Source: Escherichia coli (GTDB taxonomy: Bacteria > Pseudomonadota > Gammaproteobacteria > Enterobacterales > Enterobacteriaceae). From it: a stretch of 64,000 nucleotides of DNA. This document shows, in pieces, positions 20,320-58,635 of the stretch. The stretch lies in the NCBI RefSeq assembly GCF_048403405.1, contig NZ_CP183129.1; one strand, written 5' to 3'. Below the pieces are notes generated by a model that saw only the letters and a list, made by a program, of their open reading frames with translations, was not told the DNA's origin and made no database searches. Numbering within the stretch: the first letter of the stretch is position 1; every line of letters starts with the position of its first letter. Both the position numbers and the translations under genes were made by a program.

Positions 20320-20842
20320 ACAAACCCCTGGCAGACATTTGTTTATCTGCAAAGTAATATTGATATTGCTGACGATACGCATGCTTGAAAGCAATAGCTT
20401 TTTCTATAAGCTCGTCAGTCTCACGTTCCACAACAGCTGGATCCGCAAAAAGCAGCCCGGACTCCACCACATCGCCATATTCTTTGTTTAATCCGGCGAT
20501 CATGTACGTAATGCTTTTTCCATCACTGATCTCACGATACAACCTGAAATCACTAATTCGGATAGCCTCCATAATTGCCGGAATCAGCGCCGTGAATTTT
20601 TTCCGCTTATCCCTGGTGTCGATAGCTTTCCAGCGTTCGAATATCTTCACCCGGTTAACGCCCAGCGCCCGTTGATCAACCTCGCCATCATTAAACGTGA
20701 CGCGTTGAACATCGATGTTCGGGCGTTCTTTCAGAGCCCAGAATGCTTCCGTGATTAATATCGTCGCTTGCTCCTGTGTCATTCCTGGTCGACATACCCA
20801 GGCATCCAGAGCCTCACAAACCTGTTCAGGGGTGATTTTCAT
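20291..20842 (-). CDS. Early regulatory protein, possibly YdaT-like
   Basis: 183 aa directly downstream of cro-like gene; …KRKKFTALIPAIMEAIR… resembles what I recall of YdaT; low certainty. Confidence 0.5.
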   Translation of the reverse strand: MKITPEQVCEALDAWVCRPGMTQEQATILITEAFWALKERPNIDVQRVTFNDGEVDQRALGVNRVKIFERWKAIDTRDKRKKFTALIPAIMEAIRISDFRLYREISDGKSITYMIAGLNKEYGDVVESGLLFADPAVVERETDELIEKAIAFKHAYRQQYQYYFADKQMSARGLYEYRCTTMG

Positions 20843-21053
20843 TGTTCAACCGCCCCGCCCGCTTTGCCTTACGATATTCGTCATAAACTTTGGGGTCGTA
20901 CTGAAGTTCCCCGCCGGATGCCTCCTGTAGACGCATCGCGCGACCTTCAGGAACCAGTTTCCCCCATGCAGCAACGCTTGCCAGCCTAACTCCTGCGGCA
21001 TTGGCAAGCTTTGTTTTGCTGCCAAAAAACGCTATAGCATCAATTTTCAACAT
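20826..21053 (-). CDS. Cro-like repressor (DicC/YdaS type)
   Basis: 75 aa MLKIDAIAFFGSKTKLANAAGV…; divergent from DicA-like repressor. Confidence 0.75.
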   Translation of the reverse strand: MLKIDAIAFFGSKTKLANAAGVRLASVAAWGKLVPEGRAMRLQEASGGELQYDPKVYDEYRKAKRAGRLNNENHP

Positions 21054-21129
21054 ATCGAACTCCTTAGATTTTCCTAAGGAAACTAGATCGTAGAGAAACC
21101 TAAGTCAAGAAAAATTAGAATTACCTAAT
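21054..21129. promoter_or_regulatory. Divergent immunity promoter/operator region
   Basis: 20-bp element TCCTTAG-ATTTTC-CTAAGGA at 21061..21080 (7-bp inverted repeats) plus further CCTAAG half-site. Confidence 0.6.
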
Positions 21130-21537
21130 ATGAAAAACGAAACCTTCGGTGCTCGCCTCTTATACAGGCGTAAAAAATTAAAACTGTCTCAGGCCGCATT
21201 AGGTAAGCTGGTCAAAGTGGCTCACGTAACAATTTCTCAATGGGAAAGAGATGAAACACAGCCAGCGGGGAAGAGATTATTCGCACTGAGCCAGGCGCTT
21301 CAGTGCTCGCCGACTTGGCTTCTTTTTGGAGATGAAGATAAGCAACCAGGCGAACCGATCCCAGATAATCAGCCAGTTAATCTGACAGAAGATCAAAAAG
21401 AGTTGCTTCAACTGTTCGACGCACTGCCTGAGTCAGAGCAAAAGGCTCTGTTGTCAGAGATGCGTGCTCGAGTTGAGAATTTCAACAAACTTTTTGAAGA
21501 ACTACTCAAAGCTCGCAAAAGAAGCGCAAATAAATAA
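21130..21537 (+). CDS. DicA-like XRE-family repressor (cI analogue)
   Basis: 135 aa; HTH KLSQAALGKLVKVAHVTISQWERDET. Confidence 0.8.
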   Translation: MKNETFGARLLYRRKKLKLSQAALGKLVKVAHVTISQWERDETQPAGKRLFALSQALQCSPTWLLFGDEDKQPGEPIPDNQPVNLTEDQKELLQLFDALPESEQKALLSEMRARVENFNKLFEELLKARKRSANK

Positions 21538-21573
21538 CCCTCCCTTTTTTTTCGCCACTCTCTGTAATAAAAA

Positions 21574-21602
21574 GCACAAACTTTCAAATGCTTGTGTTTT
21601 TT
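21574..21602 (+). terminator. Hairpin plus T-run after repressor gene
   Basis: GCACAA…TTGTGT stem (long loop) followed by TTTTTT. Confidence 0.4.
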
Positions 21603-21637
21603 ACATCAAAAAACTTAGGTTTTTCTACACAAAAAGC

Positions 21638-21667
21638 TTGACCATAATTCTTAGGTTATTCTAAATT
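21638..21667 (+). promoter_or_regulatory. pL-like early promoter with operator half-sites
   Basis: TTGACC-17nt-CTAAAT; CTTAGG at 21613..21618 and 21650..21655 matching operator half-sites of the divergent region. Confidence 0.5.
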
Positions 21668-21743
21668 CTACTCATCAAGACACCGCACGGTGTTCTCAGC
21701 AAACAGTTCCGCTACCCTGGCGTTAAGGGGAAATGAGGTCAGC

Positions 21744-21896
21744 ATGGATACTATCGATCTTGGCAACAACGAATCTCTGGTATGCGGCGTGTTTCCCAAC
21801 CAGGACGGCACGTTTACCGCGATGACGTATACCAGAAGCAAAACGTTTCAAACTGAAGCTGGCGCGCGTCGCTGGTTAACCAGAAACACTGACTGA
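21744..21896 (+). CDS. YdfA-like small protein (DUF1391-like, 50 aa)
   Basis: ATG 21744 after GAGGT; MDTIDLGNNESLVCGVFPNQDGTFTAMTYT…; first gene after DicA-like repressor as in Qin. Confidence 0.65.
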   Translation: MDTIDLGNNESLVCGVFPNQDGTFTAMTYTRSKTFQTEAGARRWLTRNTD

Positions 21897-21907
21897 TGAG
21901 GTTGACG

Positions 21908-22282
21908 ATGGAATTTAAAGATTTACCAGTACCATTCCAGGAAATGGCATCGAATGTGGTTCGCTCTCAACTGGCGACTCTTGACCTGAGTACCGTAGAA
22001 AAAGAAACCATCGATACTATATCCGGTAACGTGCGTCGTGCCTTTATCGGTCTGTACGAAGAGAAGCAGCTCTCTGATAACCAGGATTTACATGAAAAAT
22101 ACTTCCTGGAATTAATGGACATCATTAATAAAGGATTTGGCTTGTTAATGAAAAAGAAAGGGATTCGAATAGCTCCCCTTGAAAATCATTTTACAGCGAG
22201 CAGTATTAATTCCTGTGATTTAAAGCATCACACATCCGATGGGAAAGTTGAATCAAACAACAAAATATCAATTAATCATTAA
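21908..22282 (+). CDS. Hypothetical protein (124 aa)
   Basis: ATG 21908 after GAGG, 11 nt past ydfA-like stop. Confidence 0.5.
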   Translation: MEFKDLPVPFQEMASNVVRSQLATLDLSTVEKETIDTISGNVRRAFIGLYEEKQLSDNQDLHEKYFLELMDIINKGFGLLMKKKGIRIAPLENHFTASSINSCDLKHHTSDGKVESNNKISINH

Positions 22283-22581
22283 TTTATTCACAGGTGAGGT
22301 AGAGTGCGTGCGCCGGACACGGATAAGAATCCGGCACTGACAGTTTACTAAAAAGGATATATCCCTGAAAAGTCAGGGCATAACACGAAAGCGCCCGGCG
22401 AAGTTAGTCTCTCTGTATAGGTCGTCGTTAAATTTAATTCGATCGTGCGCTTCCGGTTGTGGCAATCCGCGAAATGGCGCGGCGGTAAGTATGGCTGGGG
22501 TTTCCTCCATTGCTCCAGAAAATGCACCGGGTTGTCAGGTTGACCATACGCTTAAGTGACAGCCCCGCCACAATACCCATG

Positions 22582-22633
22582 TGTAGTCTTTGGTGGCATC
22601 AGTTCTACTCCGTGACTGCTCTGCCACCCTTTT
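22582..22633 (+). ncRNA. dicF: DicF-like small RNA
   Basis: GGTGGCATCAGTTCTACTCCGTGACTGCTCTGCCACCC + TTTTT closely matches the K-12 DicF sequence as I recall it, with compensating stem changes; sits between ydfA-like genes and dicB. Confidence 0.75.
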
Positions 22634-23109
22634 TAAAGTGAATTTTGTGATGCGGTGAATGCGGCTAAGCGCACGCGGAACAGTTAAAACCAAAAACAGT
22701 GTTATGGGTGGATTCTCTGTATCCGGCGTTAATTGTTAACTGGTTAACGTCACCTGGAGGCACCAGGCACCGCATCAACAAAGTTCACTTCGGTGATGAA
22801 AGGTAAGAGAAAATGTTGAATGTAGCTATTGAAAACCAGAACGGGTGGAATTATAGTGCACCTGCACCTCATAAAACGGGTGCCGGGCGTGGAAACCCGG
22901 AATTCAATCAAGCGCATAACCGCGCTCAGGCGGTTTTTTTATGCGTCAAGCACAGCCACATTCAGATTATGGTGGGGCGTGCAGGGCAGCTGCAAGGCTG
23001 GCCGGATTCTTGGTTGACCGGTATTTCCACCCCTGTACGCCTCACCACCCTTATGGTCGTGGAAAACCTTGGTGGTGAGTTATTAATACTCAACCAAGAG
23101 GCTGCCATT

Positions 23110-23667
23110 ATGGCTACTATCCCTACCCTTTCTCACCCTGACGTAACCATCGAAAATGGTCGCGCTGTCACTACGTCTGTTGCGGTTGCAGAGTTCTTCC
23201 GCAAAATGCACAAGGACGTTCTGCGCAAAATTGAAACGCTAGAATGCTCTGAAGATTTTAACGAGCGCAATTTTACGCCCGTTACCTACACCGACGCCAA
23301 AGGCGAAAAACGCCCCATGTACCAAATCACCAAAAACGGCTTCGTTTTCCTGGTGATGGGGTTCACAGGTAAAAAAGCCGCAACTTTCAAAGAAGCCTAC
23401 ATCGCTGAGTTCGATCGCATGGAGGAAGAACTGCGCCAGAATAACGCCCCGTCTCCCGACAAAATGATTCACGGGGACGGACGCACCCTGGTTATCCGTC
23501 TCGACGAACACGGCAATATCAAATTCACTGAAACCGTTCCTGACGGCGCAATGGTCTGCACCCTGGATACCTTCCGGTTTTATCTGGAGAAACAAGGATG
23601 GACTCTTGTAAACCGGAGCGCAATTAAAAATATGACTGTGGAGCAATTGCTAAAAATTCATTGTTGA
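23110..23667 (+). CDS. Rha-family phage regulatory protein
   Basis: ATG 23110 after AAGAGG; …ENGRAVTTSVAVAEFFRKMHKDVLRKIETL… Rha domain; ORF track extends in frame to 22813 but that part contains a terminator-like hairpin. Confidence 0.8.
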   Translation: MATIPTLSHPDVTIENGRAVTTSVAVAEFFRKMHKDVLRKIETLECSEDFNERNFTPVTYTDAKGEKRPMYQITKNGFVFLVMGFTGKKAATFKEAYIAEFDRMEEELRQNNAPSPDKMIHGDGRTLVIRLDEHGNIKFTETVPDGAMVCTLDTFRFYLEKQGWTLVNRSAIKNMTVEQLLKIHC

Positions 23668-23677
23668 GGACGCGATA

Positions 23678-23866
23678 ATGGAAACGTCACTACCAAACGT
23701 TAATACGTCTGACGGGTGCTTTAATATTGGTGTTCTGCTCAGTAACAGGGATTTCACCGAGGATGCAATCAATATGAGAAAATATGAACCCTACCTGCTG
23801 AATGACAATTCCATACTCTCCAGAATTGCCCTTCTTAAACTCGGTATTTTCGGAGAGTGGCGATGA
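23678..23866 (+). CDS. dicB: Cell-division inhibitor DicB
   Basis: 62 aa METSLPNVNTSDGCFNIGVLLSN…, same length and strong similarity to K-12 DicB. Confidence 0.85.
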   Translation: METSLPNVNTSDGCFNIGVLLSNRDFTEDAINMRKYEPYLLNDNSILSRIALLKLGIFGEWR

Positions 23867-58516: not shown

Positions 58517-58635
58517 ACCGGCTCCTTATCAGAGAATTGTTAGTGTGGCAGCATGTTCACTACGGAACAAGTCAGAATAAAAGCTAAGAAAAAAGGCCCG
58601 CAAGCGGACCTTTTATAAGGGTGGGAAATGACAAC

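What the first reader, a model, noticed from the sequence alone, without database searches (positions are those of the whole stretch)
21054..21667. Shared CTTAGG-type operator half-sites flank the repressor gene
The divergent promoter region holds a 20-bp palindrome with TCCTTAG / CTAAGGA arms. The promoter downstream of the repressor gene (TTGACC-17-CTAAAT) is overlapped by two further CTTAGG half-sites. This gives an oR/oL-like layout in which the DicA-like repressor would control both the cro-like gene and the ydfA-dicF-dicB early operon.
Basis: seen in the sequence. Interest (0 to 1): 0.3.

Follow-up and report, generated by a model that had tools for sequence, protein, structure and literature searches.

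The report
Operator sites of a DicA-type prophage switch
The repeated CTTAG motifs are the repressor-binding sites of an E. coli prophage on/off switch of the well-studied DicA/DicC (P22-like) type, so the layout is ordinary; only the one-base difference from the K-12 sites is mildly new.

Summary
The 20-bp palindrome TCCTTAGATTTTCCTAAGGA lies at 21061-21080. Four of the six CTTAGG hexamers in the 64-kb window fall within 583 bp. The core TTAG-N6-CTAA occurs only three times in the window, all here.

The sites are not lone half-sites. They are five dyads of one geometry (5-6-5 core, 7-6-7 at full length). Three lie between the cro-like and dicA-like genes, 26 and 25 bp apart. Two lie at the promoter of the ydfA-DicF-dicB operon.

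The locus is a homologue of the K-12 Qin dicC-dicA-dicBp region. There the operator Oc (TTGTTAG-N6-CTAACAA) has been tested in vivo, and DicC ChIP-seq peaks flank dicA.

Across about 180 related loci the arms are conserved while spacers and flanks vary freely. The base before TTAG follows the repressor lineage: C here, G in K-12, A in a third group. This prophage is therefore most likely a different immunity type from K-12 Qin.

No binding experiment exists for this variant. It is a new member of a known kind, of low interest.

The parts
20826..21053 (-). cro/DicC-like gene (75 aa), first gene of the leftward early operon (followed by ydaT-like and replication genes)
   Evidence: Pfam P22_Cro, E 2.5e-13. 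84% identical to K-12 DicC. RefSeq annotates it as a Cro/CI family regulator.
21061..21080 (.). O1: perfect 20-bp dyad TCCTTAG-ATTTTC-CTAAGGA, the counterpart of K-12 Oc. Predicted main repressor site, covering the -10 edge and start region of the leftward promoter. Its outer arm overlaps the Shine-Dalgarno sequence (AAGGAG) of the cro-like gene.
   Evidence: 0 mismatches to CTTAG-N6-CTAAG. In related loci of the same repressor class the left arm is CTTAG in 21/21 unique sequences and the right arm CTAAG in 19/21, while the spacer shows 6 variants. K-12 Oc is TTGTTAGTCATAACTAACAA at the homologous position and is bound by DicA in vivo (PMC3441716).
21080..21085 (-). Inferred -10 (TAGTTT) of the leftward cro-like promoter
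   Evidence: Read from the sequence: TTGACT, 17 nt, TAGTTT on the minus strand. K-12 has TTGACT, 17 nt, TATCTT at the same place. PMC3441716 states that Oc overlaps the dicC -10. The promoter scan did not report it because the hexamer matches only 3 of 6. Inference.
21089..21104 (.). O2: dyad CGTAG-AGAAAC-CTAAG (9/10 core match) in the spacer of the leftward promoter, 26 bp from O1
   Evidence: In this repressor class the right arm is conserved in 20/21 and the left arm is CGTAG in 16/21. The K-12 counterpart Om matches its own consensus poorly and was not bound by DicA in vivo (PMC3441716), so occupancy is uncertain.
21103..21108 (-). Inferred -35 (TTGACT) of the leftward cro-like promoter
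   Evidence: Read from the sequence. AGTCAA is conserved in the window-type and K-12-type classes; the third class has GATCAA here. Inference.
21114..21129 (.). O3: symmetric dyad ATTAG-AATTAC-CTAAT that abuts the repressor ATG, 25 bp from O2. Predicted shut-off site for the repressor gene, probably the preferred site of the Cro-like protein.
   Evidence: ATTAG and CTAAT are each 21/21 in this class. A TTAG-N6-CTAA dyad abuts the ATG in all three classes. DicC represses dicA in K-12 (PMC11430063, PMC10448788). K-12 DicA did not bind Oa (PMC3441716).
21130..21537 (+). dicA-like repressor gene (135 aa): an N-terminal domain like that of P22 c2, with no peptidase domain
   Evidence: Pfam HTH_3, E 4e-14, and no S24 hit. 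63% identical to K-12 DicA. Residues 2-69 align to the P22 c2 N-terminal domain, E 1e-21. No Shine-Dalgarno sequence precedes the ATG.
21575..21596 (.). Terminator-like hairpin between an A-run and a T-run, separating the repressor gene from the downstream promoter
   Evidence: reported on the minus strand; on the plus strand the stem is followed by TTTTTT. Relatives carry a hairpin plus T-run at the same place with different sequence.
21614..21629 (.). OB2: distal dyad CTTAG-GTTTTT-CTACA, ending 8 bp upstream of the -35
   Evidence: 2 mismatches. The left arm is CTTAG in 38/40 unique relatives and the distance to the -35 is 8 bp in 36/40. The K-12 counterpart is GTTAG-CTATAG-CATAC.
21638..21667 (+). 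dicBp-like promoter: TTGACC (21638-21643), then CTAAAT or TAAATT (21661-21667)
   Evidence: Promoter scan, 9/12 matches. It is homologous to K-12 dicBp, TTGACC-17-TAATCT, which DicA represses 22-fold (PMC10448788).
21650..21665 (.). OB1: proximal dyad CTTAG-GTTATT-CTAAA. It fills the promoter spacer, and its right arm overlaps the -10.
   Evidence: 1 mismatch. CTTAG in 35/40 and CTAAA in 37/40 unique relatives, while the 6 nt between the -35 and the arm show at least 14 variants.
21744..21896 (+). ydfA-like gene (DUF1391), first gene of the controlled rightward operon
   Evidence: Pfam DUF1391, E 8e-28.
22578..22629 (+). DicF small RNA within the same operon
   Evidence: Rfam RF00039, 61 bits against a gathering score of 48.
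23678..23866 (+). dicB cell-division inhibitor gene
   Evidence: Pfam DicB, E 1e-32. RefSeq annotation.

Best explanation
The region is the immunity switch of an E. coli lambdoid prophage of the Qin/DicA type, whose closest structurally solved relative is the P22 c2 N-terminal domain.

A dimer of the 135-aa DicA-like repressor recognises 20-bp dyads of the form xxCTTAG-N6-CTAAGxx.

**Proposed roles of the sites (inferred, not shown)**
- **O1** is the perfect site. It overlaps the -10 and start region of the leftward promoter and silences the cro-like, ydaT-like and replication genes. By analogy with K-12 it also stimulates the repressor's own weak promoter.
- **OB1** fills the spacer of the rightward promoter and overlaps its -10. 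It silences ydfA-DicF-dicB.
- **O2 and OB2** are weaker sites that would add occupancy.
- **O3** abuts the repressor ATG. It is the likely site through which the Cro-like protein, or excess repressor, shuts off the repressor gene. This would give a bistable switch.

**Specificity.** The base immediately before TTAG differs from K-12 (C against G), so this prophage is probably heteroimmune to K-12 Qin.

**Shown here:** the sites, their geometry, their clustering, their homology to the K-12 sites, and their conservation and lineage-specific variation.

**Inferred:** which protein binds which site, the promoter assignments other than dicBp, autoactivation, and heteroimmunity.
For: **Site statistics in the window**
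- 4 of 6 CTTAGG in 583 bp.
- All 3 hits with at most 1 mismatch to the dyad lie here.
- All 3 exact TTAG-N6-CTAA lie here, and the clustering probability is about 5e-5.

**Homology**
- Repressor 63% identical to DicA, cro-like protein 84% identical to DicC.
- The K-12 region has Oc, Oa and two dicBp dyads at the same positions with the same 6-bp spacer.

**Comparative footprint**
- In unique sequences of the window's class, the O1 arms are conserved 21/21 and 19/21 against 6 spacer variants.
- The OB1 arm is conserved 35/40 against at least 14 variants of the adjacent 6 nt.
- In the K-12 class, the arms are conserved 43/44 and 44/44 against 12 spacer variants.

**Lineage-specific base**
- C in 53 unique sequences of the window's lineage.
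- G in 63 of 64 unique sequences of the K-12-type lineages (TQR start of helix 2), the exception being L156.
- A in 9 of the third lineage.
- The same base recurs in both arms of O1 and, in the window-type and K-12-type classes, in the left arms of the dicBp sites.

**Experiments on the K-12 homologue**
- DicA binds Oc, single base changes abolish binding, Oc overlaps the dicC -10, and DicA is needed for dicA transcription (PMC3441716).
- Deleting dicA derepresses dicBp 22-fold, and DicC is needed for spontaneous switching (PMC10448788).
- DicC ChIP-seq peaks lie on both sides of dicA, with a TTNG/CNAA palindrome (PMC11430063).

**Structure.** The DNA-binding domain aligns residue for residue with the P22 c2 N-terminal domain, which has been solved on operator DNA.
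Against: - There is no binding or expression experiment for this variant.
- In K-12, DicA did not bind Om or Oa in the in vivo assay, even though Oa matches the K-12 consensus at 9 of 10 positions (PMC3441716). Sites here with 1-2 mismatches (O2, O3, OB1, OB2) may therefore not be repressor sites on their own.
- Part of O1's outer arm doubles as the Shine-Dalgarno sequence of the cro-like gene, and OB1's right arm doubles as the -10. Some of the conservation therefore has other causes.
- The three classes are clades, so the 'covariation' rests on about four independent lineages.
- In the third class the dicBp proximal arm is CTTAG in 6 of 8 unique sequences rather than ATTAG. The lineage-specific base is therefore strict at O1 but not at every site.
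- PMC10448788 speaks of three operators at dicBp. I find only two at up to 3 mismatches.
Confidence: 0.8

Rival explanations
1. Division of labour. The repressor binds only the perfect O1, and perhaps OB1. The imperfect dyads (O2, O3, OB2) are sites for the Cro-like protein or are non-functional relics. The layout would then only look like lambda's three-operator oR and oL.
For: - K-12 DicA bound Oc but neither Om nor Oa in vivo (PMC3441716).
- The DicC ChIP motif, as described in the figure legend, specifies only the TTNG/CNAA core (PMC11430063).
- O3's outer bases are not lineage-specific.
- HTH sequences of the Cro-like proteins do not sort cleanly by operator class.
Against: - O2 here is a much better match to its class consensus (9/10) than K-12 Om is to its own.
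- The left arms of OB1 and OB2 carry the lineage-specific base in the window-type and K-12-type classes.
- dicBp is genetically DicA-repressed in K-12 (PMC10448788).
Confidence: 0.15
2. The motifs are promoter or ribosome-binding elements, or chance similarity in AT-rich intergenic DNA, and not protein-binding operators.
For: - OB1's right arm is the -10.
- O1's outer arm contains the complement of AAGGAG, the Shine-Dalgarno sequence of the cro-like gene.
- Both regions are AT-rich.
Against: - The left arms of OB1 and OB2 and the inner arm of O1 have no promoter or ribosome-binding role, yet they are the most conserved positions, next to hypervariable neighbours.
- The same dyad geometry recurs five times.
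- The motif is depleted elsewhere in the window: 6 found against 18 expected, 4 of them here.
- In the two large classes the arm base changes in step at several separate sites between lineages.
Confidence: 0.03
3. The two downstream sites are direct repeats (CTTAGGTTnTTCTA) read by a protein that binds direct repeats, as the P2 C repressor does, rather than dyads read by a symmetric dimer.
For: OB1 and OB2 share 13 of 16 bases in direct orientation, and both right arms are degenerate.
Against: - O1 and O3 are clear inverted repeats.
- The K-12 and third-class proximal sites are good dyads: GTTAG...CTAAT or CTAAC, and ATTAG...CTAAT.
- The repressor's DNA-binding domain is of the P22 c2 type, which binds symmetric operators (PMC4267663).
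Confidence: 0.02

Closest known systems
dicC-dicA-dicBp immunity region of the E. coli K-12 cryptic prophage Qin (operators Oc, Om, Oa and the dicB promoter operators)
   Same: - Same gene order and orientation: cro-like gene, repressor, then ydfA-DicF-dicB.
- Repressor of the same length (135 aa), without a peptidase domain.
- Same 7-6-7 dyad with a TTAG/CTAA core.
- O1 against the cro-like -10, a dyad abutting the repressor ATG, a dyad in the spacer of a TTGACC promoter, and a second dyad about 8 bp upstream of the -35.
   Different: - The base before TTAG is C here and G in K-12, at O1 (both arms), OB1 and OB2.
- The repressor is only 63% identical.
- The O1 spacer is AT-rich and non-palindromic (ATTTTC), against TCATAA or CCATGG.
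- O2 is a near-consensus site here but a poor one in K-12.
- The gap between the -35 and the OB1 arm is 6 nt here and 5 nt in K-12.
- The prophage sits beside potC and carries an isrK/C4/Rha module between DicF and dicB.
Phage P22 c2 repressor / Cro with OR and OL operators
   Same: - The N-terminal DNA-binding domain aligns over residues 2-69 (E 1e-21), including the SQWER end of the recognition helix.
- The cro-like gene belongs to the P22_Cro family.
- Divergent repressor and cro genes, with repeated symmetric operators on both sides of the repressor gene.
- The third position of the half-site is a specificity position in P22 as well: T to C abolishes specific binding (PMC4267663).
   Different: - P22 operators are 18 bp with 4 central non-contacted bases (PMC4267663); these are 20 bp with 6.
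- The half-site is ATTTAAG in P22 (recalled from my own knowledge, not checked here) against TCCTTAG.
- P22 c2 has a C-terminal RecA-cleavable domain; this protein has a short helical tail and no Pfam peptidase hit.
- Only two sites were found on the 'left' side here.
Phage lambda CI/Cro with OR1-3 and OL1-3
   Same: - The logic of a bistable switch.
- Three dyads about 25 bp apart between divergent repressor and cro genes.
- A second repressed early promoter on the other side of the repressor gene.
- A repressor gene with no Shine-Dalgarno sequence, starting right at the third operator, like the leaderless PRM transcript.
   Different: - Unrelated operator sequence and length (17 bp in lambda).
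- No peptidase or cooperativity domain; induction is presumably by an antirepressor, as shown for Rem in K-12 (PMC10448788).
- Cooperative binding and looping are untested.

Membership tests
Qin/DicA-type prophage immunity region | Short (about 135 aa) HTH repressor homologous to DicA, without an S24 peptidase domain | tested here: met
   63% identity to K-12 DicA over 131 aa. Pfam gives HTH families only.
Qin/DicA-type prophage immunity region | Divergently transcribed DicC/P22_Cro-family gene | tested here: met
   Pfam P22_Cro, E 2.5e-13. 84% identity to DicC.
Qin/DicA-type prophage immunity region | 20-bp inverted-repeat operator with a TTAG-N6-CTAA core next to the -10 of the cro-like promoter | tested here: met
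   21061-21080 is a perfect dyad. The homologous K-12 Oc was read and is described in PMC3441716.
Qin/DicA-type prophage immunity region | Second promoter downstream of the repressor gene, with an operator in its spacer, driving ydfA-DicF-dicB | tested here: met
   TTGACC-18-TAAATT with CTTAGGTTATTCTAAA inside it. DUF1391, DicF and DicB lie downstream.
Qin/DicA-type prophage immunity region | Same operator specificity as K-12 DicA (half-site TGTTAG) | tested here: not met
   The half-site here is CCTTAG at O1, OB1 and OB2. The difference is fixed across 53 unique sequences of the window's lineage, against 63 of 64 for the K-12-type (TQR helix-2) lineages, the exception being L156. This makes it a member of the family but of a different, probably heteroimmune, specificity class.
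Qin/DicA-type prophage immunity region | Repressor physically binds the operators and represses both promoters | not testable with these tools
   Known only for K-12 (PMC3441716, PMC10448788). Needs EMSA, footprinting or reporter assays.
Lambda/P22-type tripartite OR/OL with RecA-cleavable repressor | Three operators between the repressor and cro genes | tested here: inconclusive
   Three dyads with 0, 1 and 2 mismatches, spaced 26 and 25 bp. In K-12 the two weaker ones were not bound by DicA (PMC3441716).
Lambda/P22-type tripartite OR/OL with RecA-cleavable repressor | Three operators at the leftward-type early promoter | tested here: not met
   Only two dyads with at most 3 mismatches lie between the repressor stop codon and ydfA.
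Lambda/P22-type tripartite OR/OL with RecA-cleavable repressor | C-terminal S24 peptidase / oligomerisation domain | tested here: not met
   No Pfam peptidase hit, and the protein is only 135 aa. Homology to P22 c2 stops at residue 69.

The most novel reading that the evidence does not exclude
DicA-family immunity groups may be set by a one-base, one-residue code.
- The operator base just before TTAG (C, G or A) tracks the residue that follows the conserved Gln at the start of HTH helix 2 (Ala, Arg or Lys).
- It does not track the recognition helix. Two loci with the window's recognition helix (VAHVTISQWE) but Arg at that position have GTTAG operators.

If this is causal, a single Ala-to-Arg change plus C-to-G changes in the operators would convert one immunity type into another. 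It would also explain how several Qin-like prophages can share a cell without cross-repression.
Probability: 0.3. Interest if true: 0.4.

Novelty: new member of a known kind. Interest (0 to 1): 0.2.

Why it matters
**Practical value**
- It gives the operator map of a prophage found intact in at least 177 complete E. coli genomes. An identical repressor is carried by PPompW prophages deposited with Stx2a-phage records.
- This switch controls DicF and DicB, which inhibit cell division and influence phage resistance.
- Knowing that its operators differ from K-12's by one symmetric base predicts that K-12 DicA data cannot be transferred directly to these strains.
- It offers a simple natural system for testing how HTH specificity shifts.

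**Limits**
- It does not change the understanding of lambdoid switches.

Tried and rejected
1. **Recognition helix as the specificity determinant.** I first supposed that helix 3 alone (KVAHVTI against KISHVSV against xxSDVSx) sets the lineage-specific base. This is rejected. L173 and L174 carry VAHVTI yet have GTTAG operators. The residue after the helix-2 Gln fits better, but this rests on only about four lineages.
2. **Third operator at dicBp.** PMC10448788 implies one. None was found at up to 3 mismatches.
3. **Fixed-offset column conservation.** It was blurred by 1-nt indels. I replaced it with separate tabulation of arms and spacers.
4. **Two 2-mismatch dyads at 58635 and 58663 in host DNA.** They lie in an unrelated palindrome beyond a gene end. 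I treat them as chance.
5. **Literature search for the exact operator sequences of this variant.** No paper in the searched library holds them; only K-12 Oc was found.
6. **DicA ChIP data in the TF compendium paper.** The main text does not mention DicA.
7. **Transcription start site of dicBp in PMC10448788.** It is not given.
8. **Similarity of the conserved dicBp leader to the HK022 PL-nun (put) region.** There is no sequence similarity.
9. **Co-residence of the two immunity classes in one genome.** This could not be established from the top-80 locus lists.

Full report
**What is there**

The window is E. coli DNA. The stretch 20800-22300 is 100% identical to many complete genomes, and 177 genomes hold at least 80% of it. 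In strain 7/2 it belongs to a lambdoid prophage that ends with xis and int next to potC.

Around the finding lie:
- a 75-aa P22_Cro-family gene (20826-21053, minus strand), followed by ydaT-like and replication genes;
- a 135-aa HTH_3 repressor gene (21130-21537, plus strand);
- a DUF1391/ydfA-like gene (21744-21896), DicF (22578-22629) and dicB (23678-23866).

The repressor is 63% identical to K-12 DicA, and the cro-like protein is 84% identical to DicC. The repressor's first 69 residues align with the P22 c2 N-terminal domain, E 1e-21. Pfam finds no peptidase domain.

**Checking the observation**

The 20-bp palindrome TCCTTAGATTTTCCTAAGGA is at 21061-21080. TTGACC is at 21638-21643, followed by CTAAAT/TAAATT at 21661-21667. 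CTTAGG is at 21614 and 21650.

| Test | Result |
|---|---|
| CTTAGG or its complement in 64 kb | 6 found, 18 expected; 4 lie within 583 bp |
| Any 4 of 6 random positions within 583 bp | probability about 5e-5 |
| CTTAG-N6-CTAAG, at most 1 mismatch | 3 hits, all here; 0.71 expected |
| TTAG-N6-CTAA, exact | 3 hits, all here |

One correction applies: only the site at 21650 lies within the core promoter. The dyad at 21614 ends 8 bp upstream of the -35.

**Refining the anatomy**

The 'half-sites' are arms of full dyads with one geometry.

| Site | Coordinates | Sequence | Mismatches |
|---|---|---|---|
| O1 | 21063-21078 | CTTAG-ATTTTC-CTAAG | 0 |
| O2 | 21089-21104 | CGTAG-AGAAAC-CTAAG | 1 |
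| O3 | 21114-21129 | ATTAG-AATTAC-CTAAT | 2, symmetric |
| OB2 | 21614-21629 | CTTAG-GTTTTT-CTACA | 2 |
| OB1 | 21650-21665 | CTTAG-GTTATT-CTAAA | 1 |

- O1, O2 and O3 are 26 and 25 bp apart. OB2 and OB1 are 36 bp apart.
- On the minus strand I read TTGACT (21108-21103), 17 nt, TAGTTT (21085-21080). That places O1 at the -10 edge and start region of the cro-like promoter, and O2 in its spacer. This is an inference; the -10 is too weak for the scan.
- O1's outer arm contains the complement of AAGGAG, the Shine-Dalgarno sequence of the cro-like gene.
- O3 abuts the repressor ATG, which has no Shine-Dalgarno sequence.
- A hairpin with a T-run (21575-21596) separates the repressor gene from the downstream promoter.

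**Comparison with K-12 Qin**

The K-12 sequence shows the same plan.
- Oc is TTGTTAG-TCATAA-CTAACAA, next to TTGACT-17-TATCTT on the opposite strand.
- Oa is TTTAG-CATTAG-CTAAC, one base short of the dicA ATG.
- dicBp is TTGACC-GATAT-GTTAG-TCATGG-CTAAT-CT.
- A distal site GTTAG-CTATAG-CATAC lies 8 bp upstream of the -35.

Published work on K-12:
- DicA acts at Oc in vivo, and single base changes in Oc abolish this.
- Oc overlaps the dicC -10, and the dicC start site was mapped by 5'RACE.
- DicA is required for dicA transcription.
- Om and Oa were not bound (all four points from PMC3441716).
- Deleting dicA raises dicBp 22-fold. DicC is needed for spontaneous switching, and the Rem antirepressor relieves repression (PMC10448788).
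- DicC ChIP-seq gives its strongest signal at this locus. [quoted passage not shown]

**Comparative test**

Three scans of viral contigs gave about 180 loci with DicA relatives of roughly 54-100% identity. All counts below are of unique sequences.

Conservation of arms against spacers:

| Class | O1 left arm | O1 right arm | O1 spacer | OB1 left arm | OB2 left arm |
|---|---|---|---|---|---|
| Window's class | CTTAG 21/21 | CTAAG 19/21 | 6 variants | CTTAG 35/40 | CTTAG 38/40 |
| K-12 class | GTTAG 43/44 | CTAAC 44/44 | 12 variants | GTTAG 41/42 | GTTAG 41/41 |

- In the window's class, the 6 nt between the -35 and the OB1 arm take at least 14 forms.
- A third class has ATTAG/CTAAT at O1 in 9/9.
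- Conserved arms beside free spacers and flanks are the pattern expected of protein-contacted sites.
- In the two large classes the coordinated change of one base at several separate sites between lineages argues that the sites are read by the lineage's own repressor.

Caveats:
- The classes are clades, so there are few independent events.
- In the third class the proximal dicBp arm is CTTAG in 6 of 8 unique sequences.
- Part of O1 and part of OB1 overlap a Shine-Dalgarno sequence and a -10.

**What sets the specificity**

I expected the recognition helix to track the operator base. It does not. L173 and L174 have the window's helix (VAHVTISQWE) but GTTAG operators.

The residue after the conserved Gln at the start of helix 2 tracks the base at O1 with one partial exception:

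| Residue after helix-2 Gln | Base before TTAG at O1 | Unique sequences |
|---|---|---|
| Ala | C | 53 |
| Arg | G | 64 (across two different recognition helices; one locus, L156, has A in the left arm) |
| Lys | A | 9 |

This is a correlation over about four lineages. In P22 the third base of the half-site is a contacted specificity position (PMC4267663). However, P22 operators have a 4-bp centre against 6 bp here, so contacts cannot simply be transferred.

HTH sequences of the Cro-like proteins do not sort by class. That fits a Cro-like protein that reads mainly the invariant TTAG/CTAA core.

**Most likely mechanism**

- The repressor dimer occupies O1 and OB1. This blocks the leftward promoter (cro-like, ydaT-like, replication genes) and the rightward promoter (ydfA-DicF-dicB).
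- O2 and OB2 add weaker occupancy.
- The Cro-like protein, made when the repressor fails, acts at O3 to shut off the repressor gene.
- The protein has no peptidase domain, so induction is presumably through an antirepressor rather than RecA cleavage.
- These steps are inferred from K-12 and from site positions. None is shown for this variant.

**Verdict**

This is a new member, with a different operator specificity, of a known kind of switch. Interest is low.

Noticed in passing
window 21672-21743: The leader between dicBp and the ydfA-like ATG is conserved across all repressor classes, even where the downstream gene differs. It holds an inverted repeat CACCGCACGGTG (21682-21693; variants such as CACTGCACAGTG keep the pairing). 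It also holds a small hairpin CGCTA-CCC-TGGCG with compensatory CG-to-AU or GC changes in 4 of 15 sequences. There is no Rfam family here at gathering score and no sequence similarity to the HK022 PL-nun region. It could be an antitermination, processing or protein-binding element. Unexplained.
   Followed up: partly
window 22813-23667: Rfam isrK (22864-22940) and C4 antisense RNA (22965-23052) both lie inside the 5' third of the annotated 284-aa Rha-family ORF. The Rha domain covers only residues 120-205, and the N-terminal part matches Pfam Phage_ASH. Either the annotated start is over-extended or the stretch is read both as RNA and as protein.
   Followed up: partly
window 22578-23866: An antirepressor-type module (isrK/C4 plus the Rha-family gene) sits between DicF and dicB, with a truncated dicB fragment annotated just upstream. 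It appears to be an insertion into the dicBF operon. If it is transcribed from dicBp, it could feed back on the repressor.
   Followed up: no
window 21108-21132: The repressor gene has no Shine-Dalgarno sequence. A possible -10 (TAGAAT, 21116-21121) lies inside O3, 8 nt before the ATG. This suggests a leaderless or nearly leaderless mRNA, like lambda cI transcribed from PRM. A dyad abuts the ATG in all three classes.
   Followed up: partly
L080 and L081, 10-35 nt after the repressor stop codon: In two distant relatives a 9-bp perfect inverted repeat, GCTAAGTTT...AAACTTAGC, contains the operator half-site in the opposite (outward) arrangement just after the repressor gene. It could be a terminator hairpin built from operator-like sequence, or an extra site.
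   Followed up: no
window 21575-21596: The hairpin after the repressor gene is flanked by an A-run and a T-run, so it could terminate transcription in both directions. Relatives have hairpins of different sequence at the same place.
   Followed up: partly
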